DNA from: a virus
Length of the DNA: 30,759 bases
Virus genome (UHGV): UHGV-0286058
Direction: 5' to 3' (one strand)
Shown here: in pieces, positions 3,747 to 29,875 of the stretch
Numbering within the stretch: the first letter of the stretch is position 1
Layout of the letters: every line of letters begins with the position of its first letter
Program-made: the position numbers and the translations under genes
The notes under the pieces: generated by a model
What the model saw: the letters and a program-made list of their open reading frames with translations, nothing else
The model's database searches: none
What the model was told of the DNA's origin: nothing

Positions 3747-5330
3747 TTGGCTGTTCAGTTCGCGTTTCCGTGGAATGCTCCACGGTCGGCAATAACCAGT
3801 CCATATCTTACCTACGACCAACAGTATCGCCGCGACCGTATGTTCGCGGCTTTGCTGCATGCGAGAAAGGTGCTTTCTCTTCAGCCTGAGTGCGTGCGTT
3901 TTGATGTTTATCGAACCGCTGCGGTGCTGGAGAAAAATCAGGGCAGTCAACGAGCCAATGCTTTTTTAATCAGCTTCTGCAAAAAGGCATTGCCGCGTCT
4001 TGAATTGGTCGCAAAAAAATACGAGTGCGTGGGTATTAACAGCAATGTATCTGCCGCTGTTTTCGATGGTCATTTTGATACCCAGCTTATGCAATATCTG
4101 GCGTCACGCATGGTCAATATGGTCGCCAGATTTAACCGCCTCCCGGATATGTCGCGCGCCGATATTGACCTGCTGGCCGCTGATATAGCTAATTTCATTC
4201 GTGCTGAACTGGCTGATATTGATGACACCGGATTTAGCGAACTCAAAACGCTGTACACCTGGTACATGCGCGCCGGTTTTATTTCCCTGCAATTCAACAT
4301 TACACCGCCGAAATGGGAGCGTGTGACTAAAAAATATTTTGGCGAGGATGAAATCGCACCGGCAGTAATGCGTATGTTTAATGAGGTTTGGTGGCGCGAT
4401 CGTTTACGTCGTATTGCGTCTGCGTGGCGCGAACACCTGCACATTGCCGTTGGCAGCGTCAGTAAGAGAAAACACGTCTATGCTAGTAAAAACTGCGTGA
4501 CTGACTGGCGCGAGCAAAAGCGCCGCACGCGCGAATTTCTCAAGGGGCTGGATCTCGAAGACGAAGACGGCAACCGCATTAGCCTGATTGAAAAATACGA
4601 CGGCTCGGTAGCTAATCCAGCAATACGCCGCTGCGAGCTGATGACCCGCATCCGTGGGTTTGAAAACATCTGCAATGAGCTCGGTTATGTCGGTGAGTTT
4701 TACACCCTTACTGCACCGTCTAAATATCACGCCACCACCAAAGCGGGCTACCGTAATAGAAAATGGAACGGTGCCAGCCCGTCGGACACGCAGAGCTATC
4801 TAACCGGCCTATGGGCACGCATACGCGCTAAGCTACACCGGGAAGAAATCCGCATTTTCGGCATCCGTGTTGCCGAGCCTCATCACGACGGAACGCCTCA
4901 CTGGCACATGCTTATGTTCATGTTGCCGGAAGATGTCGAGCGCGTGCGCCTCATCATTCGCGATTATGCGTGGGAGGAAGACCGACACGAGCTGAGAAGT
5001 GATAAGGCCAAAAAGGCACGTTTTCATGCCGAGGCCATTGACCCGGAAAAGGGCAGCGCTACCGGCTATGTTGCTAAATACATTTCCAAAAATATCGACG
5101 GCTATGCTCTCGATGGTGAAACCGATGACGAAAGTGGTGAGTTCCTAAAAGAGACAGCCCCCGCTGTTTCAGCATGGGCGGCGCGCTGGCACATCCGACA
5201 ATTTCAGTTTATCGGCGGTGCGCCTGTGACGGTCTACCGTGAGTTGCGTCGTCTCGCTGATACCGAGACCGCGCACGGTTTGAGTATTGAGTTTGCCGCC
5301 GTTCATGACGCCGCTGATGCCGGTGATTGA
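3747..5330 (+). CDS. A: replication initiator A, catalytic part (HUH rolling-circle endonuclease); ends at an in-frame TGA
   Basis: 527 aa; HUH-like motif PHWHMLMFM and paired tyrosines GYVAKYISK (YxxxY) as in P2 A protein. Track start is TTG. Same reading frame continues into 5379-5963. Confidence 0.75.
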   Translation: MAVQFAFPWNAPRSAITSPYLTYDQQYRRDRMFAALLHARKVLSLQPECVRFDVYRTAAVLEKNQGSQRANAFLISFCKKALPRLELVAKKYECVGINSNVSAAVFDGHFDTQLMQYLASRMVNMVARFNRLPDMSRADIDLLAADIANFIRAELADIDDTGFSELKTLYTWYMRAGFISLQFNITPPKWERVTKKYFGEDEIAPAVMRMFNEVWWRDRLRRIASAWREHLHIAVGSVSKRKHVYASKNCVTDWREQKRRTREFLKGLDLEDEDGNRISLIEKYDGSVANPAIRRCELMTRIRGFENICNELGYVGEFYTLTAPSKYHATTKAGYRNRKWNGASPSDTQSYLTGLWARIRAKLHREEIRIFGIRVAEPHHDGTPHWHMLMFMLPEDVERVRLIIRDYAWEEDRHELRSDKAKKARFHAEAIDPEKGSATGYVAKYISKNIDGYALDGETDDESGEFLKETAPAVSAWAARWHIRQFQFIGGAPVTVYRELRRLADTETAHGLSIEFAAVHDAADAGD

Positions 5331-5378
5331 GCTGGATATGTCAATGCGCAGGGTGGTCCGTTTGTCCGTCGTGATGAT

Positions 5379-5963
5379 TTGCAGGTGCGCACGCTGTATG
5401 AACCGCGCACTGAGTTTAACCAGTATGGTGAGGAAACCGTCTGCATCCGTGGCGTGTACGATTCCTCTGTAGGTTCTGGCACCCCGATTTTAACCAGGCT
5501 AACGCAGTGGAAAATTGTGCCGAAGCGTGCCGTTGATTTGGCCGTTGACGTTAAGGGCGCTCCTGCGCCCTCTCGGAGTTCTGTCAATAACTGTACGAGA
5601 AGCGAAAGCGATCCACCGATACTGGATTTAACAAAACCTCTGAGTCGGCGTGAGAGACGAGAGCTGACCAACCGACTCAGGAAGCAAAAGCCAGCAATAC
5701 GGCGAAAATTCATCCACGGAACGGATGAGCAAAATGCAGCTATAGCGAAAACCATCGACGAGATACATCTGACAACCGGCATCGCAATTAGCCGGGGCGA
5801 AGCCCTGCATCTGATGGCGGGTGGTAAAAGTTGTTATGGCGGTAAGTGGCTACGCGGAACAGCCAAAGGCGAAATATTTTCTGCAGCGCCATCACACCAA
5901 GTTAAAGCTAAGAAAATCCTCAATCGTGTGGCGGCTTTAGCTGAAATGACAACCAAAATGTAA
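5379..5963 (+). CDS. A: replication initiator A, C-terminal part (same frame as 3747-5330, separated only by one TGA)
   Basis: 5379 minus 3747 is divisible by 3; no other stop between 5331 and 5378; combined length 738 codons fits P2/186 A proteins (about 700-760 aa). Confidence 0.55.
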   Translation: MQVRTLYEPRTEFNQYGEETVCIRGVYDSSVGSGTPILTRLTQWKIVPKRAVDLAVDVKGAPAPSRSSVNNCTRSESDPPILDLTKPLSRRERRELTNRLRKQKPAIRRKFIHGTDEQNAAIAKTIDEIHLTTGIAISRGEALHLMAGGKSCYGGKWLRGTAKGEIFSAAPSHQVKAKKILNRVAALAEMTTKM

Positions 5964-6043
5964 CCCTTAATATTTATCCATATCATGTACATACAGCGTA
6001 TTTAATCGTGATTTTTTTCTTCACATCTTTTGTTAATACGTGC

Positions 6044-6063
6044 TACTGTATGTTTATACAGTA
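6044..6063. promoter_or_regulatory. LexA (SOS) operator overlapping the tum promoter
   Basis: TACTGTATGTTTATACAGTA is a perfect CTGT-N8-ACAG palindrome; TTGTTA (-35-like) lies just upstream and TATACA (-10-like) overlaps the box. Confidence 0.75.
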
Positions 6064-6108
6064 TCTCGTAGTGGAGGTTGTGTGGATAGAGAGTTAAGCG
6101 AGCACGTT

Positions 6109-6522
6109 ATGATTGAGCGGGTCGAAATGATTGCGCGTCTGACGGCTGAAGGCGCTTGTAAGGAAAGAGACCGCGAAATCGCATTGAATTTAATTGCGGA
6201 GATAGCAAGAAGGAACTTAATGAAAAACAACTCCTTCTCGGTTGTTTTCTCCCCAACGCCTATTGAAGAACGATTAAAAAGAGGGGGCGAGGTGAGGGTA
6301 AATATCATATTAGATAAAGACCAAAAAATAGGCCAGCCGGTGATTGATGCTTTTCAATGCGAATTGGCTAGGCGAGTACAGTCTATTTTCCCGTCAACGC
6401 GCGTTACAGTTAAAAAGGGATCCATGACAGGTGTGGAGCTGATGGGATTCGATAAAGATTCAGATCGAGAGGCGCTTGATAGTATCCTTCAGGAAGTGTG
6501 GGAGGATGAGAGCTGGCGTTAG
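6109..6522 (+). CDS. tum: Tum-like SOS-inducible antirepressor with DinI-like C-terminal domain
   Basis: C-terminal 80 aa (VRVNIILDKDQ...LDSILQEVWEDESWR) resembles DinI-family proteins; LexA box immediately upstream. Track ORF starts at GTG 6040 inside the operator; in-frame GTG 6082 would give 146 aa, ATG 6109 gives 137 aa. Confidence 0.6.
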   Translation: MIERVEMIARLTAEGACKERDREIALNLIAEIARRNLMKNNSFSVVFSPTPIEERLKRGGEVRVNIILDKDQKIGQPVIDAFQCELARRVQSIFPSTRVTVKKGSMTGVELMGFDKDSDREALDSILQEVWEDESWR

Positions 6523-6605
6523 TTCCTGAAAAATGTACAAACCGTGCCCCCATGTTTGATAGCATGGGGTTGTTTTTTTATGGGGATTACAAACAAAGGA
6601 AAATC

Positions 6606-7337
6606 ATGGATACCGTTATAGCATTTTTATCTCTGGTGCTCTTTCTTGCTTTTATCGTGGGTTTAATCAAGCCGTCGCTGGTTCGAATGCCGAACCGTAA
6701 GCGCTCCAGTGCGGTTTATCTCGGTGGCTGTCTGGCGCTGGGTGTTATTGGCTCAATCTTATGGCCGACTGAAAAAAGTCAGCCTGTGGCAAAAAACGAT
6801 GTACCGGCGGTTAAAGCGGAACCGGCTACGCCAACGTTTGAGTACGCAGATAAAACACTCAAAGAATATCGCAACGAGCCAAAAGAAACCCGGCACGATA
6901 TCGTTAAAGGATATGTTGGCTTCAAAGGTGTACCGGCCAGCTCTGCTGATGCCTTTTATGCCTGTATGAGTGAGTACACTTTTACTAAAGATGATGCGTT
7001 AAAGCTCGGTGATGTGTTGGGGTGGTGTTTTAACGACTTCGAGAAGGATCCACAATCTCTGAATAATAAAATCAACCTTGACGCATTTCAGGGTAATTTC
7101 AGCGGTTGGGATGGCTCTTATCGCCCGTTAGAGATGCTGATAAAAGCCAGCATGAATGATGATTCCTCTTATAAACATGTTTCAACGGTCTACCATCTGA
7201 TTTTGAATAAAGACCCGCATGCCATTGTAAAAACGACGTTTCGCGGCACTAATGCTTATGGTGGCGTGGTCAAACAGACCGTAGCTGCGCGCGTCAACGT
7301 GCGAACGGGTGAGGTCGATTCGATACTCGACAATTAA
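6606..7337 (+). CDS. membrane-anchored accessory protein, function unknown
   Basis: ATG 6606 with AAGGA RBS; N-terminal hydrophobic helices (VIAFLSLVLFLAFIVGLI, AVYLGGCLALGVIGSILW) followed by about 170 aa soluble domain with no motif I recognise. Lies between tum and cos, the position of old/tin in P2. Confidence 0.5.
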   Translation: MDTVIAFLSLVLFLAFIVGLIKPSLVRMPNRKRSSAVYLGGCLALGVIGSILWPTEKSQPVAKNDVPAVKAEPATPTFEYADKTLKEYRNEPKETRHDIVKGYVGFKGVPASSADAFYACMSEYTFTKDDALKLGDVLGWCFNDFEKDPQSLNNKINLDAFQGNFSGWDGSYRPLEMLIKASMNDDSSYKHVSTVYHLILNKDPHAIVKTTFRGTNAYGGVVKQTVAARVNVRTGEVDSILDN

Positions 7338-7446
7338 ATAATATAGTGACAAACGCCGCCGGTGCTGAAACTCGTTTTCCGTGCTGGCGGGGTTGAACAA
7401 CGAGCCTGCGAGGCGTTAGATACATATAATCGAAAGAGGATGGATT

Positions 7447-7995
7447 ATGTCAAAGTTTACAGAGTTGTGCAGCGCATATACTGAGTTTCAGAACAAACTT
7501 TCTGATACTCGACTTGCTGCGTTTAACTTTTCTAGTCTCGTGATTAAAAATTATTTAGATTATCTTGGTATTGATAATGTAGAAACATATAAATTAATCC
7601 CGTTAGATAAAGATGAAAAACTAAATACGAAATATACACCCGCTGGAGCTACTCATTTAGGGGATGATGGGTTCTGGCATTTAGGATTTGTATTGACTGT
7701 CTATAAAGACTCTAATACTTACCCGCAGTCGCCTTTCCAAATAGATTTCAAATTCAGAAAAAATGATGATGGCTCATATACATTTGGTGTTGATAGCATA
7801 GATTTTGCAACAAAAATTACCTCTCTCAGTAACTCAAATGAATTCACACCTGTATTTGATAAAATTCAAGAGTGCATTCTAGGGCACTTTAAAGAATTTG
7901 AAGACTTTCTTGTTGGTAAGCATGACAAGATGTCATCCATTGGATTCATTCAAGAAGGTATTTTTGCGAAAATTAACAGCGAAAAAAATGCGTAA
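7447..7995 (+). CDS. AT-rich accessory protein, function unknown
   Basis: 182 aa, AGAGGA RBS, visibly lower GC than neighbours, followed by hairpin plus T-run; no transmembrane segment, no recognisable motif. Confidence 0.55.
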   Translation: MSKFTELCSAYTEFQNKLSDTRLAAFNFSSLVIKNYLDYLGIDNVETYKLIPLDKDEKLNTKYTPAGATHLGDDGFWHLGFVLTVYKDSNTYPQSPFQIDFKFRKNDDGSYTFGVDSIDFATKITSLSNSNEFTPVFDKIQECILGHFKEFEDFLVGKHDKMSSIGFIQEGIFAKINSEKNA

Positions 7996-8013
7996 AGAGT
8001 ACACAAGTAAATG

Positions 8014-8038
8014 ATGCATGCCTTAGGTGCATTTTTTT
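8014..8038 (+). terminator. putative intrinsic terminator after the accessory gene
   Basis: ATGCATGCC-TTA-GGTGCAT stem-loop followed by TTTTTTT. Confidence 0.4.
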
Positions 8039-8138
8039 GCATGCCCCAGCCGTGCCAGTTCTGAGCGTATACTGTCAGAGCTGGCGCGGATCCAGAGTAG
8101 TCATGCAACTGCATTAAAACCGACACATAAAGCGGGCA

Positions 8139-8157
8139 GGCGTGGCGGGGAAAGCAT
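8139..8157. other. cos cohesive-end site (186/P2 type)
   Basis: GGCGTGGCGGGGAAAGCAT, recalled as the 19-nt cohesive end of 186 (P2 differs at two positions); located just outside portal gene Q as in P2. Confidence 0.5.
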
Positions 8158-8333
8158 TGCGCGCCAGCGGTGGTGCGTAATAATAAAAATTATCCTCTGA
8201 GCGCGTCGTGATGGCGCTGTCGTGGATGCTGTAGGCTCGTTGGTGGTCTGGTGTAGCCGTGCGCGTGTGGTGCGTCTGAGGCGTGATGATGGCGGGGTAT
8301 GAAAAAGCCGCCATGCTGGCGGCTTGAGGGGGA

Positions 8334-9380
8334 TTATTCCGGGTTGTCGAGGGTGTACTCTTTGAATCTGATGACCTCCATGCCGAGCCAGTCGTTTACC
8401 TCCCTGAACCTGTCCTGCAGGGGTGACAGCTCGTTACGAACGAATACCTTTGCCACCTTCTCAACGTCACCGAGTGAACCGATATTCTCGGGCTTGCCGC
8501 CCATAAGCTGGAACGGCACGCGGTGCGCGTCCATCAGGTCGGCAGCGCTGGCTTTCTTAATGTTGAAAAAGTCATCCTTTGTGGCGACCTCGCTCAGTGG
8601 CACGATTTTGATGCCGTCCGGTTTTCCGCCGGGTGCGTAGAAAAACAGGTTCTTAAAGTTGCCGAGCCCTTTCGAGTTGCGCATCGCCTCGCGCAGCGAT
8701 TCGACGTCGGTCGCGCTCTGCGCCGGGTCGGTCACATACATGATGTAACCAGCATGCGCTCCGTTCTGGTAATACTTGCGGCGGAACAGCGTCGCAGCTT
8801 CATTCAGCCAGGCGGAATTAAGCGCGCTGAGATATTCAGGCAGGCCGTAAATTTCCTGATTAATGTCGGGCTCAAGCAGGTGAAACACGGTATCAGGCGC
8901 GAACTCATGCGGCCGCGTGAAGTTTTCCACAAACCAGAAAATCGAGTCGTCGACCCCGCGCCGGGTGTATTTGGCCGGTGAGGCCAGTAGCTTGATTAAC
9001 TGGCCGGTGACGCTGTTGCGCTGCTCAAGAAAGGCATTGCCGAAAACCAGATAGTCGAGTGCAAAACGGCTGAAATCCTGACGGGATAGCAACGGGTGCG
9101 GAATGTAGGTGCTTGCGAGTACGTTGCGCTTAACATAAATCGGTGAGCTGTGATGCACGGCAGAGCGCAGGCTCTTTGCCAGCCCGGAGAAGCTTACTGG
9201 CGGCTCGTACCATTTGCCGTTACTGATGCACTCGACGTAATCCAGAATATCGCGCTTATCGAGTACCGGCACCGGCTCGCCGAAGGTGAACGCTGTCGTT
9301 TTTGGCGGTGCGCTGGCGGTAAGTTGTTGTGGCTTGCTGGCCTTCTGCGCAGCGGCTTTACGGGATTTTTGCTTACCCAT
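8334..9380 (-). CDS. Q: portal protein
   Basis: 348 aa (P2 Q about 344 aa), leftward, immediately followed by terminase P; P2 synteny. Confidence 0.85.
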   Translation of the reverse strand: MGKQKSRKAAAQKASKPQQLTASAPPKTTAFTFGEPVPVLDKRDILDYVECISNGKWYEPPVSFSGLAKSLRSAVHHSSPIYVKRNVLASTYIPHPLLSRQDFSRFALDYLVFGNAFLEQRNSVTGQLIKLLASPAKYTRRGVDDSIFWFVENFTRPHEFAPDTVFHLLEPDINQEIYGLPEYLSALNSAWLNEAATLFRRKYYQNGAHAGYIMYVTDPAQSATDVESLREAMRNSKGLGNFKNLFFYAPGGKPDGIKIVPLSEVATKDDFFNIKKASAADLMDAHRVPFQLMGGKPENIGSLGDVEKVAKVFVRNELSPLQDRFREVNDWLGMEVIRFKEYTLDNPE

Positions 9381-16213: not shown

Positions 16214-16643
16214 CGCCGTGCCGCAGCTCAGGAATAACCCCGATATGCTGCGCCTGTTTGCCGACAACGGCCATACCGATTCCCGATTGGCGAGCTCGCT
16301 GTCGTTTGAAAAGGTGTACGTGCTTAACATGGTGGTGACCGACTTCACCGGCGACCTCGATTTGATATTCGTGCCGGTGCAGGCGTGGCTGCGTGAACAT
16401 CAGCCGGACATTATGACCACCGACGACGGTCGGGAAAAAGGATTCACCTGGATTATTGATATCAATAACGACGATTCGCTCGATATCAGTATCAGCCTGA
16501 GGCTCACCGAGCGCACGCTCGTCAAAGAGGTCGACGGTGCGCTGCATGTCAGCTATGCCCCTGAACCGCCGCTGCCAGAGCCGGTGACGCGACCGGTCGA
16601 GCTGTACGTTAACGGTGAACTGGTGAGTAAGTGGGATGAGTGA
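16167..16643 (+). CDS. R: tail completion protein R
   Basis: 158 aa (P2 R about 155 aa); synteny. Start may be ATG 16176. Confidence 0.7.
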   Translation: MNSMQKHKSLRKALINAVPQLRNNPDMLRLFADNGHTDSRLASSLSFEKVYVLNMVVTDFTGDLDLIFVPVQAWLREHQPDIMTTDDGREKGFTWIIDINNDDSLDISISLRLTERTLVKEVDGALHVSYAPEPPLPEPVTRPVELYVNGELVSKWDE

Positions 16644-17085
16644 GTTAACCGCACTGCAGGAACATCTTGCCGGTCTGATTGCCAGCCTGTCACCGGCGGC
16701 GCGTCGGCAAATGGCGGCTGAGATTGCGAAAAAGTTGCGTACAAGTCAGCAACAGCGCATCAAGCGCCAGCAGGCACCCGACGGCACCCCATATTCGGCA
16801 CGAAAGCGCCAGCCGGTGCGGGGCAAGAAAGGTCGGATTAAGCGTGAAATGTTCGCCAAACTGCGCACCAATCGCTTTATGAAAGCCAAAGGCAGCGACA
16901 GTGCGGCGGTTGTGGACTTTACCGGCAAGGTGCAGCGCATGGCGCGGGTGCATCAGTACGGCCTAAAAGACCGGCCAAACCGCAACAGCCGGGATGTGCA
17001 GTACGAGGCGCGCCCGCTGCTGGGTATTAACGCTGATGATGTTTCTGTTATTAATGATATTATCATTGGATCTTTATCAAAATAA
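16636..17085 (+). CDS. S: tail completion protein S
   Basis: 149 aa (P2 S about 150 aa); overlaps R stop. Confidence 0.7.
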   Translation: MSELTALQEHLAGLIASLSPAARRQMAAEIAKKLRTSQQQRIKRQQAPDGTPYSARKRQPVRGKKGRIKREMFAKLRTNRFMKAKGSDSAAVVDFTGKVQRMARVHQYGLKDRPNRNSRDVQYEARPLLGINADDVSVINDIIIGSLSK

Positions 17086-17110
17086 TAGTGTTAAAAGGTA
17101 GCGGCGAAAA

Positions 17111-18154
17111 ATGGGTGATGCATATTTATTCGATATCATAAAGGACATGCTGCCAGTTTTATCAGGCCTACTAGGAGTGTTGGGTATTCTCAATGTGTTT
17201 AAAACTTCGAATAATCGCCTTAGCTTTTGGGGATGGCTGGCTGTTTTTGTAATTGTGATCTCCACGATTGCAACACTGCTATTAGCGAAAAAGGAAAAAA
17301 ATGATAATGAGCGGGAAAAGATACAACTCCAAAACAAAATAGATAACATATTAAGAGACGTAGCCAAGGCTCGTGAGCCAATTGGGGAGGTTTCCATAAC
17401 CTATTGGTCGCTGCTTCCTGATTCGAATCAACTGGTTCGAAAATACAAAGACTATCTTAATGAAAAAGCAAGAGGTGAGGTCGAAAATTTTTCATTCCAT
17501 AACCTAACGAAGACTAATAAAGATTATTTCGGGACTACAATCGATTTGGATGGGAAGCTCGCCGTTTTTAGCATTGATGAAAAAAATAAGTATTGGCCCT
17601 CGGGTTCTTTCTCTGAAATCGGTCTTTTGGCCTCAAATTTTTCAATAATGCTCTGTATCAATTCCAAACACACTAATGCTAAGGATGTGCGTTTTATCAT
17701 AGGGGCAAGGAACAACTTAGATTGGTGTGCTCTTGCCTTGCTGCCAAGAACAAGTGATATCTTTTATGACGTCAAAAAAGATAAAATTGGATTGGCAACA
17801 ACCATTACATATGACAAAAAATGGGTGTATTCCAATGGCGTTATTTCCTCGGTTAGAGATTTCTTCGGTTCGGATGTCTTTTTTGTTCTTCCCTCTACAG
17901 ATTCTCGATTTTTGAATGACTATCTAAAGTCCATAGGAGCACCTCAGACGCTTATAGAGTCAAATAAAATAAAGTCCGAGATCATTGCTGGTATGAGCAC
18001 AGAGTCAGTGAGCGTCAAAATGGGGGATGGCCAACGTTTTAATATCTCAGGAGAACATCTAAAAAAATATAACTCGAAAGATGGCAGAACTTTTTTCTAT
18101 ATCAAAATGCCTTTGTCAGAAAAAGAAGTTAGTGAGCTCGAGACAAAAAATTAG
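17111..18154 (+). CDS. AT-rich membrane-anchored accessory protein, function unknown (moron between S and V)
   Basis: 347 aa; two N-terminal hydrophobic helices (LPVLSGLLGVLGILNVF, WGWLAVFVIVISTIATLLLA) then about 280 aa Lys/Asn-rich domain; GC visibly far below flanking tail genes; sits where P2 carries orf30. Confidence 0.55.
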   Translation: MGDAYLFDIIKDMLPVLSGLLGVLGILNVFKTSNNRLSFWGWLAVFVIVISTIATLLLAKKEKNDNEREKIQLQNKIDNILRDVAKAREPIGEVSITYWSLLPDSNQLVRKYKDYLNEKARGEVENFSFHNLTKTNKDYFGTTIDLDGKLAVFSIDEKNKYWPSGSFSEIGLLASNFSIMLCINSKHTNAKDVRFIIGARNNLDWCALALLPRTSDIFYDVKKDKIGLATTITYDKKWVYSNGVISSVRDFFGSDVFFVLPSTDSRFLNDYLKSIGAPQTLIESNKIKSEIIAGMSTESVSVKMGDGQRFNISGEHLKKYNSKDGRTFFYIKMPLSEKEVSELETKN

Positions 18155-18249
18155 CACGGACCATTAGTATAGTTTGATTCAGGTTTGTGTCATGCCTCAC
18201 AGATAGGAAGAAAGTTGTTCATCACTTCTCCTATCTGCATTCTGTCCGT

Positions 18250-18885
18250 ATGAATACTTTAAACAATATCCAAGAACTGGCCCGCGCGATTCGCAACCTC
18301 ATCCGCTCAGGCGTGGTGACGGAAGTCGACACCGTAGAGGGGCTGTGCCGCGTACAAAGCGGCGGGATCCAGACTACATGGCTGAACTGGCTGACCACCC
18401 GCGCCGGTCGTTCGCGGACGTGGTGGGCTCCCTCGGTCGGTGAGCAGGTTCTGCTGCTGGCAATCGGTGGCGAGCTTGATACCGCTTTCGTGCTGCCGGG
18501 TATTTTCTCCGACGATAACCCCGCCCCGTCTGCCTCGGCGGATGCGTGGCATGTGGCTTTCCCTGATGGTGCGGTCATTGAGTACGAGCCCGAGACCAGT
18601 GCGCTGACGGTCAGCGGCATAAAAACGGCCGACGTGACGGCATCGGAATCCATCATCGCAACCGTACCGCTGGTACTGGTGAAAGCCTCAACCAGTATCA
18701 CCCTCGACACCCCGGAGGTGATTTGCACCAACAAGCTAACGACGACGACGCTTGAGGTGCAAAAAGGCGGCACGATGAAAGGCAACATTGAGCATACCGG
18801 CGGGTCACTGTCGTCAAATGGCAAGGTACTCCATACCCATAAACACCCCGGCGACAGCGGCGGGACGACGGGGGCGCCGATATGA
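18250..18885 (+). CDS. V: baseplate assembly protein V (spike)
   Basis: 211 aa from ATG 18250 (P2 V 211 aa); track's upstream extension from 18187 rejected. Confidence 0.8.
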   Translation: MNTLNNIQELARAIRNLIRSGVVTEVDTVEGLCRVQSGGIQTTWLNWLTTRAGRSRTWWAPSVGEQVLLLAIGGELDTAFVLPGIFSDDNPAPSASADAWHVAFPDGAVIEYEPETSALTVSGIKTADVTASESIIATVPLVLVKASTSITLDTPEVICTNKLTTTTLEVQKGGTMKGNIEHTGGSLSSNGKVLHTHKHPGDSGGTTGAPI

Positions 18886-29168: not shown

Positions 29169-29816
29169 CTACCTCAAAAGGCCTTCAGTCAATTCTTCGC
29201 CCGTACAGAATTGATATAGTGCACGAAGGTTCTCTTCAATCCACGTTATCTCTTTTAATGCATAACCTGAGAAACCGATCATAATATTTTCTATTTCAAT
29301 GAGTTGTGCAGAGTCTTTGTTATCTACAATCGAATCATAAAAGTGCTTTAACTCAACTATAGCTTTAAAGGCTGCATCCATCTTTTCATAAAAAACTGAA
29401 TCAGTTTTCGATACATCGTATAAAAATCTTGAGAAATTTTCCGTAGATGGTTCTGGAAGGAGGCCACCTGATTGTTTTCTTCCACTTTTTAATACTATGT
29501 AACGTGTTTTTCCTGCAGTGGTTTTGAACACTTGAAGATCTAATATACGTTCATGTTGTGGTTTTTTTTCATATGGCTCAAATGTTTCGCAAAGCTTTTT
29601 GATCTGCCCGTTGATATGCCAAGCAACCTGGCACTCCCGAGCAAATATTTGCTTTAAGGCGCGAATCTCATTTTTTCTCGCTTTAGATTTACGACGACAA
29701 TCTAACAATTCCCTAATAATGAAGAGAAAGATTGCAACAAAAGCAGATGCTGGAATGAGCGTTCCACTCGTCAAAAGGCTAACCCAATCACATTGTGTTG
29801 CAGTTTCTACCGCCAT
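29169..29816 (-). CDS. AT-rich accessory protein with N-terminal membrane anchor, function unknown
   Basis: 215 aa from ATG 29816 (track start 29858 would overlap the tRNA terminator); helix LIPASAFVAIFLFII then soluble domain; convergent with ogr; low GC. Confidence 0.5.
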   Translation of the reverse strand: MAVETATQCDWVSLLTSGTLIPASAFVAIFLFIIRELLDCRRKSKARKNEIRALKQIFARECQVAWHINGQIKKLCETFEPYEKKPQHERILDLQVFKTTAGKTRYIVLKSGRKQSGGLLPEPSTENFSRFLYDVSKTDSVFYEKMDAAFKAIVELKHFYDSIVDNKDSAQLIEIENIMIGFSGYALKEITWIEENLRALYQFCTGEELTEGLLR

Positions 29817-29844
29817 TTTATCGCCACCCCGAAATTGATAAACA

Positions 29845-29875
29845 AAAAGGCCACCCAAGTGAGTGGCCTAACTGT
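29845..29875 (-). terminator. intrinsic terminator downstream of the tRNA
   Basis: Minus strand reads AGGCCACTCACTTGGGTGGCC followed by TTTTTGTTT, directly after the tRNA 3' end. Confidence 0.4.

What the first reader, a model, noticed from the sequence alone, without database searches (positions are those of the whole stretch)
17086..18249. AT-rich 347-aa membrane protein inserted between tail genes S and V
The tail operon is otherwise tightly packed with overlapping start/stop codons, but here a single gene of strikingly low GC sits between S and V with its own spacing, and about 95 nt of non-coding sequence precede V. The protein has two predicted N-terminal transmembrane helices and a large domain with no recognisable catalytic motif. 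P2 carries a non-essential moron (orf30) at this same junction, so this is a known insertion point but the gene itself looks unrelated to anything I can name. A membrane-anchored single-gene abortive-infection or exclusion protein is the leading hypothesis.
Basis: partly seen in the sequence, partly recalled or inferred. Interest (0 to 1): 0.6.

Follow-up and report, generated by a model that had tools for sequence, protein, structure and literature searches.

The report
Rare membrane-protein cargo in P2-phage hotspot
A real, foreign, AT-rich gene sits at a known cargo-swapping site between two tail genes of a 186/P2-like prophage; it encodes an unnamed membrane-anchored protein whose fold matches nothing in the libraries searched, and it most likely blocks other phages at the cell envelope, though that function is untested.

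Summary
ORF 17111-18154 (+, 347 aa, GC 0.38 against ~0.60 in the flanks) lies between gpS and gpV of a complete 186-like prophage. The foreign block starts inside the 3' end of S (~17026). The 95-nt gap before V is the conserved late promoter P_V, not spacing that belongs to the gene.

The S-V junction is a genuine cargo hotspot. Of 60 listed 186-like junctions in E. coli, 27 are empty, 30 carry one of four other cargos (all antisense), and 3 carry this gene.

The protein matches nothing in Pfam, PHROGs, PADLOC, NCBIfam, PDB or BFVD. An exhaustive search nevertheless finds a divergent family of 111 cluster representatives with one architecture: a two-helix membrane hairpin, a stalk helix and an alpha/beta domain (AlphaFold pLDDT 90). 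Every relative of at least 31% identity occupies the same S-V slot, in the sense orientation.

Charge bias and repeated gain of cysteine pairs suggest the large domain is periplasmic. No catalytic motif is conserved. dN/dS is about 0.25, and the cassette has recently moved between phage backbones.

Best reading: an envelope-level superinfection-exclusion protein (confidence ~0.4). Abortive infection, a late-phase phage role or a host-fitness factor remain possible. Function is untested, so interest is moderate.

The parts
17026..17085 (+). AT-rich, recoded 3' end of gpS (last ~20 codons). This is the left edge of the exchanged cassette.
   Evidence: GC is 0.23 against 0.60 for the rest of S. 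The alignment to phage 186 and 613R3 breaks down here although the encoded peptide stays gpS-like.
17055..17063 (+). Candidate extended -10 promoter element TGaTATTAT, 53 nt upstream of the cargo ATG, inside the S coding sequence.
   Evidence: A TGnTAT[T/C/G]AT element occupies the equivalent place in 4 of 7 distinct loci (window/L018, L005, L007, L021). In L021 it has a 5/6 -35 hexamer at 16-nt spacing. Coding constraint on gpS is a confounder, and this is not evidence of function.
17111..18154 (+). Cargo gene: 347-aa membrane-anchored protein of an unnamed family (identical to a common E. coli allele, P0115).
   Evidence: ORF. Family of 111 representatives. AlphaFold with a 48-sequence alignment gives pLDDT 90 and pTM 0.78. 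dN/dS about 0.25. Every source names it 'hypothetical protein'.
17147..17200 (+). Transmembrane helix 1 (about residues 13-30), preceded by an acidic N-tail with no K/R and by the conserved K11.
   Evidence: Hydropathy, AlphaFold helix 3-29, family charge statistics.
17222..17287 (+). Transmembrane helix 2 (about residues 38-59), preceded by a short K/R-rich loop (residues 31-37).
   Evidence: Hydropathy peak 2.4. The loop averages 3.4 K+R against 0.8 in the N-tail across 69 members.
17288..17374 (+). Charged stalk helix (residues 60-88), continuous with TM2; carries the conserved E62 and a conserved basic residue at position 86 (K86 in the window protein, R in 90% of the family).
   Evidence: AlphaFold helix 39-88; conservation.
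17378..18151 (+). Alpha/beta globular domain (residues 90-347). It contains the signature motif NGxIxSxxD(L/F)xGxQ (N242-D255, with D250 invariant), the W162-P163 and D204-W205 motifs, and the clade-specific cysteine pair C182/C206.
18155..18249 (+). P_V late promoter region (phage backbone function), with an Ogr/B-type activator-site-like element, TGT-N10-ACA at 18186-18201, centred about 56 nt before the V ATG.
   Evidence: It aligns without gaps to the 'activator binding site' and 'transcription start site for V operon' annotated in P2. TTGT is invariant in six phages.
18200..18237 (+). Stable hairpin just upstream of the V start, and the first hairpin downstream of S. It may end the upstream late transcript.
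   Evidence: RNA fold of 18150-18252 gives z = -2.6. GC-rich hairpins of different sequence occupy the same position in L005 and L008. No structure is predicted between S and the cargo (z = +1.25).

Best explanation
This is an accessory ('moron') cassette in the S-V cargo hotspot of a 186-like (Eganvirus) prophage.

The protein. It encodes an inner-membrane protein anchored by an N-terminal two-helix hairpin. Its stalk helix and its ~260-residue alpha/beta domain most likely face the periplasm (N-out, loop-in, C-out), probably stabilised by a disulfide between C182 and C206. The domain has no catalytic signature, so it probably works by binding.

Proposed mechanism. The protein is an envelope-level superinfection-exclusion factor. 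It intercepts the genome-delivery step of incoming phages, either by binding their tail-tip or ejection machinery as it reaches the inner membrane, or by masking a periplasmic or inner-membrane host component they need. This would protect the lysogen, and with it the prophage.

Proposed expression. The gene is read through from the late P_O operon, because no terminator-like hairpin separates it from S. It may also be expressed in lysogens from an extended -10 promoter created by the AT-rich recoding of the last codons of S.

Shown by computation: the gene is real, foreign, dispensable and under purifying selection; the junction is a hotspot; the family architecture; the absence of known homologues or folds in the libraries searched; recent exchange of the cassette between backbones.

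Inferred: the topology, the disulfide, the promoter, and the exclusion function itself.
For: Hotspot and dispensability:
- Phage 186 has a 69-nt S-V gap.
- Seventy E. coli genomes carry the 186-like junction. Of the 60 listed, 27 are empty, 18 carry a pentapeptide-repeat protein, 8 carry HIT plus a hypothetical, 3 carry two hypotheticals, 3 carry this gene, and 1 carries another 261-aa protein.
- P2 has the unrelated orf30 there.

Foreign origin and mobility:
- GC 0.38 against 0.60.
- Cargo dS is 0.004-0.05, while flanking gpR and gpV have dS 0.12-0.30 in the same pairs.

Functional gene:
- dN/dS about 0.25.
- 111 family representatives; pLDDT 90.
- Intact on several hundred E. coli contigs.

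Fast divergence typical of conflict genes: the cargo is 31-47% identical where gpS is 66-70% and gpV 62-79%, in the same loci and always in the same slot.

Periplasmic orientation:
- The N-tail has essentially no K/R (0.04 per sequence before residue 9) and about 1.5 acidic residues. The inter-helix loop is K/R-rich.
- Cysteines in the C-domain occur as none (40 sequences) or pairs (21), rarely singly (7). There are 12 distinct pair positions against 7 single-cysteine patterns (p about 2e-4 against a Poisson expectation). Two subfamilies each have their own conserved pair: C182/C206 and C-x6-9-C.

Non-enzymatic: no conserved His, nucleophile triad or metal motif. The conserved positions are mainly Gly, Pro, Asp, Ser and Tyr.

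Precedent: prophage inner-membrane proteins that block DNA entry and diverge to below 30% identity (P22 SieA, PMC10883804).
Against: - No experiment or homology links the family to phage resistance. PADLOC gives only a TM-region hit to 'gop' at E 0.036.
- The charge rule is not decisive. The 15 residues after TM2 carry about 2.7 K/R, and three Lys follow TM2 directly in this protein, which disfavours export.
- Overall cysteine parity (14 even against 10 odd patterns) is not significant.
- The standard scan found no sigma-70 promoter upstream. The extended -10 may simply reflect codons for the gpS peptide 'DII'. If the gene is expressed only late in the lytic cycle, it would not protect a lysogen.
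- None of the other cargos at this junction is a recognised defence gene, so guilt by association is weak.
- Distant family members occur in non-phage contexts.
Confidence: 0.4

Rival explanations
1. Single-gene abortive-infection protein. The two-helix hairpin is a membrane-disrupting effector and the C-terminal domain is a cytoplasmic sensor. On recognising a phage component, the protein oligomerises and depolarises the membrane, killing the infected cell.
For: - The architecture (N-terminal 2-TM module plus a globular domain) resembles known membrane effectors of Abi systems; this comparison is from general knowledge and is not a homology result.
- Counting the K/R-rich segment after TM2, the charge balance slightly favours N-in/C-in.
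- The TM region is the best-conserved part (K11, G22, G41).
- One of three E. coli genome copies is disrupted by ISEc12 at its 5' end, which would fit a cost of carriage.
- One distant member lies 2 nt after a PIN-domain gene.
Against: - The N-tail is acidic and free of K/R, and the loop is K/R-rich.
- Cysteines were gained repeatedly in pairs, which is unexpected in a cytoplasmic domain.
- There is no nucleotide-binding, SAVED, TIR or other sensor-like domain, and no partner gene.
- No PADLOC match.
- A single IS insertion into AT-rich DNA is weak evidence.
Confidence: 0.2
2. An accessory function expressed late and serving the phage's own lytic cycle. As the last gene of the P_O late transcript, the protein would act in the envelope of the producing cell. 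It could exclude superinfecting phages during assembly, tune lysis timing, or prevent progeny from being wasted on cell debris.
For: - The gene is sense-oriented, 25 nt after S, with no terminator-like hairpin before it. The first hairpin comes after it.
- All members of at least 31% identity share this sense arrangement, while every other cargo at the site is antisense.
- No canonical sigma-70 promoter was found upstream.
Against: - The gene is dispensable and rare: 3 of 70 186-like junctions, and none of 50,697 phage records.
- The prophage already has a holin, endolysin, LysB and LysC.
- A plausible extended -10 promoter lies upstream.
- Distant relatives occur outside phages.
Confidence: 0.15
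3. A lysogenic-conversion or host-fitness factor unrelated to phage conflict. The periplasm-facing protein would modify or bind an envelope component (LPS, peptidoglycan or a transporter) and so change stress tolerance, colonisation or virulence of the host.
For: - The domain is probably periplasmic.
- Two of three complete-genome carriers are porcine ETEC/O141 strains.
- Other cargos at the site (pentapeptide-repeat, HIT family) are not obviously antiviral.
- Conserved polar residues (D204, N242, S247, D250, Q255, Y112) could form a ligand site.
Against: - There is no similarity to any known enzyme, adhesin or envelope-modifying family by sequence or fold.
- The gene also occurs in human and environmental isolates, in Enterobacter, Kosakonia, Serratia and Pantoea, and in soil metagenomes.
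- The host association rests on only three genomes.
Confidence: 0.15
4. Not a functional gene: a decaying remnant or a chance ORF in AT-rich filler DNA.
For: The ribosome-binding site is weak (AAGG 13-16 nt upstream) and no strong promoter was found. One copy is disrupted by an IS element, one allele carries D250N, and another carries C206G.
Against: - A 1,044-nt ORF in 38% GC DNA.
- A full-length conserved architecture in 111 cluster representatives.
- dN/dS about 0.25.
- A confident co-evolution-driven structure model.
- Intact on several hundred contigs.
Confidence: 0.02

Closest known systems
P2 orf30 and the 'three moron regions' of P2-like phages (Christie & Calendar, as cited in PMC6823313; P2 record NC_001895)
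   Same: Same genomic slot between tail-completion gene S and baseplate gene V. Non-essential, low GC, variable between relatives, function unknown.
   Different: No sequence or profile similarity (E 4.3, hhalign probability 0.2%). P2 orf30 is antisense and lies after an annotated O-operon terminator. This gene is in the sense orientation with no terminator-like hairpin before it.
P22 SieA-type superinfection-exclusion proteins (PMC10883804)
   Same: Prophage-encoded, single-gene, inner-membrane proteins with no catalytic motif. Sequence types diverge to below 30% identity. They act by blocking DNA delivery, which is the proposed analogy.
   Different: SieA is 162-164 aa, has three TM helices and lacks a large soluble domain. 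No PHROG or Pfam link was found. The genomic location and phage type differ. Function here is not demonstrated.
SNIPE membrane-bound nuclease (PMC13190303)
   Same: An N-terminal membrane anchor with a short periplasmic N-terminus, and a defence acting at the site of genome injection. This is a conceptual parallel only.
   Different: [quoted passage not shown] Neither domain is detected here or in any of 48 family members. The C-domain here is probably periplasmic and non-catalytic.
Validated P2-like defence hotspots: A-Q (old/tin) and fun(Z) (Rousset 2022, PMC9122126; Vassallo 2022, PMC9519451; Egorov 2024 preprint)
   Same: Small loci between conserved phage genes with high cargo turnover. 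The S-V junction behaves the same way, with five cargo types besides the empty state among 60 listed junctions.
   Different: None of the three studies names or functionally tests the S-V junction. No cargo found here matches a PADLOC model.

Membership tests
Moron / hotspot cargo of P2-like phages | Presence/absence polymorphism between otherwise collinear relatives, at a recurrent site | tested here: met
   Empty in phage 186 and in 27 of 60 listed junctions. Four other cargo types plus this gene occupy the same site.
Moron / hotspot cargo of P2-like phages | Base composition deviating from the phage backbone | tested here: met
   GC 0.38 and GC3 0.385, against 0.60 and 0.68-0.70 in the flanks.
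Moron / hotspot cargo of P2-like phages | Own promoter and terminator, allowing expression from the repressed prophage | tested here: inconclusive
   The standard scan finds no sigma-70 promoter and no terminator. A candidate extended -10 lies inside S at 17055-17063, recurring in 4 of 7 loci. The only hairpin is the one before V.
P2 Orf30 family | Sequence homology to P2 Orf30 | tested here: not met
   BLASTP E 4.3; hhalign probability 0.2%.
Known anti-phage defence systems (PADLOC v2.0.0) | Significant match to a defence-protein model | tested here: not met
   Only 'gop' at E 0.036, over the TM region. The library dates from 2023, so newer systems are not covered.
SNIPE | DUF4041 plus a GIY-YIG nuclease domain | tested here: not met
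   No Pfam hit in the protein or in 48 family members.
SieA-like / other phage exclusion families in PHROGs | Profile match to an annotated phage protein family | tested here: not met
   No PHROG at E<=1e-3 for the protein. One of 48 members hits a holin PHROG at 2.7e-4, which I read as a hydrophobic-region match although the output gives no coordinates.
Superinfection-exclusion proteins (functional class) | Expression in the lysogen and a block of adsorption or DNA entry of a superinfecting phage without cell death | not testable with these tools
   Requires transcript mapping and phage-challenge, adsorption and injection assays.
Exported (periplasmic) disulfide-bonded domain | N-out/C-out topology with paired cysteines | tested here: inconclusive
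   The acidic K/R-free N-tail, the K/R-rich loop and the excess of cysteine pairs (p about 2e-4) support it. K/R after TM2 and the non-significant overall parity do not. No model coordinates or DeepTMHMM were available.
P2-like virion or lysis proteins | Conserved presence in P2-like phages; homology to structural or lysis families | tested here: not met
   Absent from 50,697 phage records. Present in 3 of 70 186-like junctions. Holin, endolysin, LysB and LysC are present separately.

The most novel reading that the evidence does not exclude
The gene founds a new family of phage-borne, periplasm-facing, membrane-anchored anti-phage (entry-blocking) proteins, with a fold unmatched in the PDB and BFVD libraries searched. 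It would also mark the S-V junction as a third, so far unexplored, defence hotspot of P2-like phages. A further element is that its promoter is built into the recoded end of an essential tail gene, so the cassette can spread by homologous recombination between phage backbones.
Probability: 0.3. Interest if true: 0.65.

Novelty: new variant of a known kind. Interest (0 to 1): 0.45.

Why it matters
P2-like prophages are present in roughly a fifth of complete E. coli genomes. Two of their hotspots have already yielded many new defence systems. The third classical moron site, between S and V, has no functional data in the literature I could search.

This gene gives a concrete, clonable, single-gene candidate from that site. 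It belongs to a family with no name, no domain annotation and no structural relative in the libraries searched. It has a recognisable signature motif, and its architecture points to action in the envelope.

If it blocks phage entry, it would add a new fold and possibly a new target to the short list of mechanistically understood exclusion proteins. It would also justify mining the S-V junction systematically.

If it has no anti-phage phenotype, it is one more uncharacterised moron, and the result mainly documents the hotspot.

Tried and rejected
- Single-sequence AlphaFold gave pLDDT 42 and was unusable. It was replaced by the alignment-based model.
- The word-index homology search suggested only 3 clusters. 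This understated the family, which the exhaustive HMMER search showed to have 111 representatives.
- A profile built from all 48 sequences was too divergent for the search for related loci. An 8-sequence alignment was used instead.
- The AFDB Foldseek library was not available.
- The idea that the N-terminal anchor is a shared module fused to different C-terminal domains is rejected. The 'N-terminal-only' hits still contain the (N/D)GxIxSxxD(L/F)xG motif and have no other Pfam domain.
- A conserved partner gene is rejected. Upstream genes in distant contexts are unrelated to one another. The UvrD-like neighbour's GajB hits look like generic helicase matches (my reading), and no Gabija partner was found.
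- Guilt by association at the junction fails. None of the alternative cargos matches a defence model convincingly.
- The reading of the 95-nt gap as belonging to the moron is rejected in favour of the P_V promoter.
- Homology to P2 orf30 is rejected.
- A literature search for the RefSeq accession WP_000508390 found nothing.
Full report
OBSERVATION

The window is a complete 186-like (Eganvirus, Peduoviridae) prophage. Between gpS (16636-17085, Pfam Phage_tail_S, E 7e-37) and gpV (18250-18885, Phage_base_V and Phage_spike) lies one ORF, 17111-18154 on the + strand, encoding 347 aa. Its GC is 0.38 and GC3 0.385. The neighbouring genes have GC 0.60 and GC3 0.68-0.70. Neighbouring late genes overlap start to stop. 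Here 25 nt precede the ATG and 95 nt follow the stop. Two hydrophobic helices lie at about residues 13-30 and 38-59.

BOUNDARIES AND THE 95-NT GAP

Phage 186 has only 69 nt between the S and V homologues. Aligning the junctions shows that similarity to 186 is lost about 60 nt before the end of S. That segment has GC 0.23, although the encoded peptide remains gpS-like. Similarity resumes about 15 nt before the V start.

The P2 reference record annotates four features in this interval:
- an O-operon terminator after S;
- orf30 on the minus strand;
- a pV activator-binding site;
- a V-operon transcription start at the V start codon.

The window's 18155-18249 aligns without gaps to that promoter. 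TTGT is invariant in six phages, and TGT-N10-ACA is centred about 56 nt before the ATG. The gap is therefore the late promoter P_V, which is backbone, not spacing that belongs to the cargo.

THE JUNCTION IS A HOTSPOT

Seventy of 5,426 complete E. coli genomes carry this 186-like R-S...V region at 90% identity or more. The 60 listed junctions break down as follows:

| State of the S-V junction | Genomes | Strand of cargo |
|---|---|---|
| Empty | 27 | - |
| Pentapeptide-repeat protein | 18 | minus |
| HIT-family protein plus a 173-aa protein | 8 | minus |
| Two hypotheticals | 3 | minus |
| This 347-aa gene | 3 | plus |
| A different 261-aa protein | 1 | minus |

The literature lists S-V as one of three P2 moron regions (PMC6823313). 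The functional hotspot studies cover only the A-Q and fun(Z) loci, or a tail-cI locus (PMC9122126, PMC9519451, bioRxiv 10.1101/2024.10.15.618418). None of the alternative cargos matches a PADLOC model convincingly.

THE PROTEIN

Pfam, PHROGs, PADLOC and NCBIfam give nothing significant. The word-index search found three clusters. All public copies are named 'hypothetical protein', and they occur on several hundred E. coli contigs.

The exhaustive HMMER search found 111 representatives at E<=1e-3, 39 of them at E<=1e-10. Most are 330-350 aa and align end to end. A 48-sequence alignment shows one architecture:
- an acidic N-tail;
- TM1, with the conserved K11 just before it and the conserved G22 within it;
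- a short basic loop;
- TM2, with the conserved G41;
- a charged helix with E62 and a conserved basic residue at position 86 (K86 in the window protein, R in 90% of the family);
- a domain carrying P90, Y112, W162-P163, D204-W205 and the motif NGxIxSxxD(L/F)xGxQ, with D250 invariant.

No His, nucleophile or metal motif is conserved. Weaker hits that appeared to match only the N-terminus still carry the C-terminal motif, so there is no domain swapping.

With the alignment, AlphaFold gives pLDDT 90 and pTM 0.78. The model has helices 3-29 and 39-88 followed by a mixed alpha/beta domain. Structure and profile searches found no relative:

| Search | Best result |
|---|---|
| Foldseek against PDB | E 0.026, TM <=0.14 |
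| Foldseek against BFVD | E 0.0036, TM <=0.19 |
| Family profile against PDB sequences | E >=0.3 |
| Pfam on 48 members | only two isolated single-member hits (HTH_44, DUF6518) |
| PHROGs on 48 members | one holin hit, in a single member |

The AFDB library was unavailable.

WHERE RELATIVES LIVE

Every relative with 31% identity or more lies between gpS and gpV of a P2-like phage, on the sense strand, 25-70 nt after S. In one lineage it follows an extra 247-aa gene. These relatives come from E. coli, Escherichia sp., Enterobacter bugandensis, Kosakonia, a contig labelled Chryseobacterium, four IMG/VR contigs of about 32 kb, and several metagenome contigs.

They are rare:
- 4 of 185,579 species-representative genomes;
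- none of 50,697 phage records and none of 72,556 plasmids.

In the same loci the cargo is 31-47% identical, while gpS is 66-70% and gpV 62-79% identical.

More distant members (20-28% identity) occur in other settings, with no conserved partner:
- in a different phage, between the replication and packaging modules;
- next to a UvrD-like helicase and an SNase;
- directly after a PIN-domain gene;
- in soil contigs.

SELECTION AND MOBILITY

Against a 97%-identical allele, dN/dS is 0.25 (dS 0.052). In the same comparison gpR has no non-synonymous differences and gpV has a dN/dS of about 0.06. Their dS values are higher, at 0.12-0.15.

Against an IMG/VR prophage, the cargo dS is 0.004 while gpR has dS 0.30 and gpV 0.125. 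The cassette has therefore been exchanged recently between diverged backbones. This fits homologous recombination within S and the P_V region.

One genome copy is interrupted by ISEc12 near codon 7.

TOPOLOGY

Across the family, the N-tail has almost no K/R and about 1.5 acidic residues. The inter-helix loop is K/R-rich, at 3.4 against 0.8 in the N-tail. This favours N-out, loop-in, C-out.

The 15 residues after TM2 also carry about 2.7 K/R alongside about 3 acidic residues, so the charge rule alone is not decisive.

Cysteines in the C-domain are absent in 40 sequences, paired in 21 and single in 7. There are 12 different pair positions against 7 single-cysteine patterns (p about 2e-4 against a Poisson expectation). 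Two subfamilies each have their own conserved pair: C182/C206 in the P2-borne clade and C-x6-9-C in another.

I take this as moderate evidence, about two in three, that the large domain is exported and disulfide-bonded.

EXPRESSION

The standard scan finds no sigma-70 promoter upstream and no terminator on the sense strand in the interval. RNA folding shows no structure between S and the cargo. The first stable hairpin is at about 18200-18237, just before V, a position that also holds a hairpin in two other phages. The gene should therefore be part of the late P_O transcript.

An extended -10-like element, TGnTAT(T/C/G)AT, lies 53-69 nt upstream of the ATG in 4 of 7 distinct loci, within the recoded end of S. 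This is a candidate lysogenic promoter. It may equally be a by-product of the codons for the gpS peptide.

INTERPRETATION

The gene is real, foreign, dispensable and mobile, and it is maintained by selection. It diverges fast, is membrane-anchored, shows no sign of being an enzyme, and probably faces the periplasm.

The best-fitting mechanism is an envelope-level block of genome delivery by other phages, that is, superinfection exclusion. It would work like P22 SieA, which is an inner-membrane protein whose sequence types are below 30% identical (PMC10883804). It is not a member of that family, nor of SNIPE (PMC13190303).

Three rivals cannot be excluded without experiments:
- an Abi protein with a cytoplasmic sensor;
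- an accessory function in the late phase of the phage's own cycle;
- a host-fitness factor.

The functional guess is reasonable but untested, and several details are corrected: the spacing, the comparison with orf30, and the idea of a simple insertion.

VERDICT

This is a new, unnamed protein family in a known kind of locus. Interest is moderate (0.45). It is a well-defined candidate for experiment rather than a demonstrated new mechanism.

Noticed in passing
window 16636-18885; L026, L027, L028, L002: The S-V junction of 186-like prophages in E. coli is polymorphic. Of 60 listed junctions, 27 are empty, 18 carry a pentapeptide-repeat protein, 8 carry HIT family plus a 173-aa protein, 3 carry 140-aa plus 170-aa proteins, 3 carry the 347-aa gene and 1 carries a 261-aa protein unrelated to P2 Orf30. 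Every cargo except the 347-aa family is antisense to the late genes.
   Followed up: partly
L004 1505-3807 (E. coli LR-21-1); corresponds to window ~17132: An IS21-family element (ISEc12, istA/istB) is inserted near codon 7 of the 347-aa gene in one of the three complete genomes that carry it.
   Followed up: partly
window 5328-5330 (within 3840-5945): The replication gene A homologue matches a 709-aa relative over residues 1-702 in one alignment, but it contains an in-frame TGA. The prophage may be replication-defective, or this may be a sequencing error.
   Followed up: partly
window ~5964-8333: A second low-GC cargo region (GC 0.40-0.48) lies between gene A and the portal gene, the classical old/tin hotspot. 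It holds a DinI-like (Tum-like) 160-aa ORF (6040-6522) and ORFs of 261 aa and 182 aa with no Pfam or PADLOC match. The near-identical prophage in strain P13-6 instead carries a Ser/Thr kinase and other genes there.
   Followed up: partly
window 18200-18237; L005 ~2027-2048; L008 ~9107-9128: A stable hairpin lies between the P_V activator site and the V start codon in three phages. Its sequence differs in each but its position is the same. It may terminate the upstream late operon inside the next promoter.
   Followed up: partly
window 18193..18166 (minus strand): A sigma-70-like promoter (ATGACA-16-TATACT, 10 of 12 matches) points antisense into the 3' end of the cargo gene. Its -35 hexamer is the complement of part of the P_V activator element, so it may be coincidental. 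Alternatively it may be a relic of the divergent promoter that antisense cargos would use.
   Followed up: no
L008 7217-7960 (also L020, L024): One P2-like lineage has an additional sense-strand 247-aa gene between S and the family member. It gives weak HNH_5 and PDC-M01B hits. It is about the same size as the 741-bp ORF16 reported at this site in phage R18C.
   Followed up: no
L020 (CACSKA010000005.1): A 420-kb contig labelled Chryseobacterium sp. carries an enterobacterial-type P2-like prophage with 55% GC. This suggests a mislabelled or contaminated assembly.
   Followed up: no
P0125 and P0001 (alleles of the window protein): One E. coli allele has D250N at the only invariant family position. 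One metagenomic allele has C206G, which breaks the cysteine pair. Both may be inactivated variants.
   Followed up: no
L029 248-1730: A distant family member (26% identity) starts 2 nt after a PIN-domain (PIN_8/PIN_12) gene. This looks like a two-gene operon, but it was not seen in other contexts.
   Followed up: partly
window 29169-29858 (minus strand): A low-GC (about 0.41) 229-aa ORF near the right end of the window, beyond gene D. It has no Pfam or PADLOC match.
   Followed up: partly
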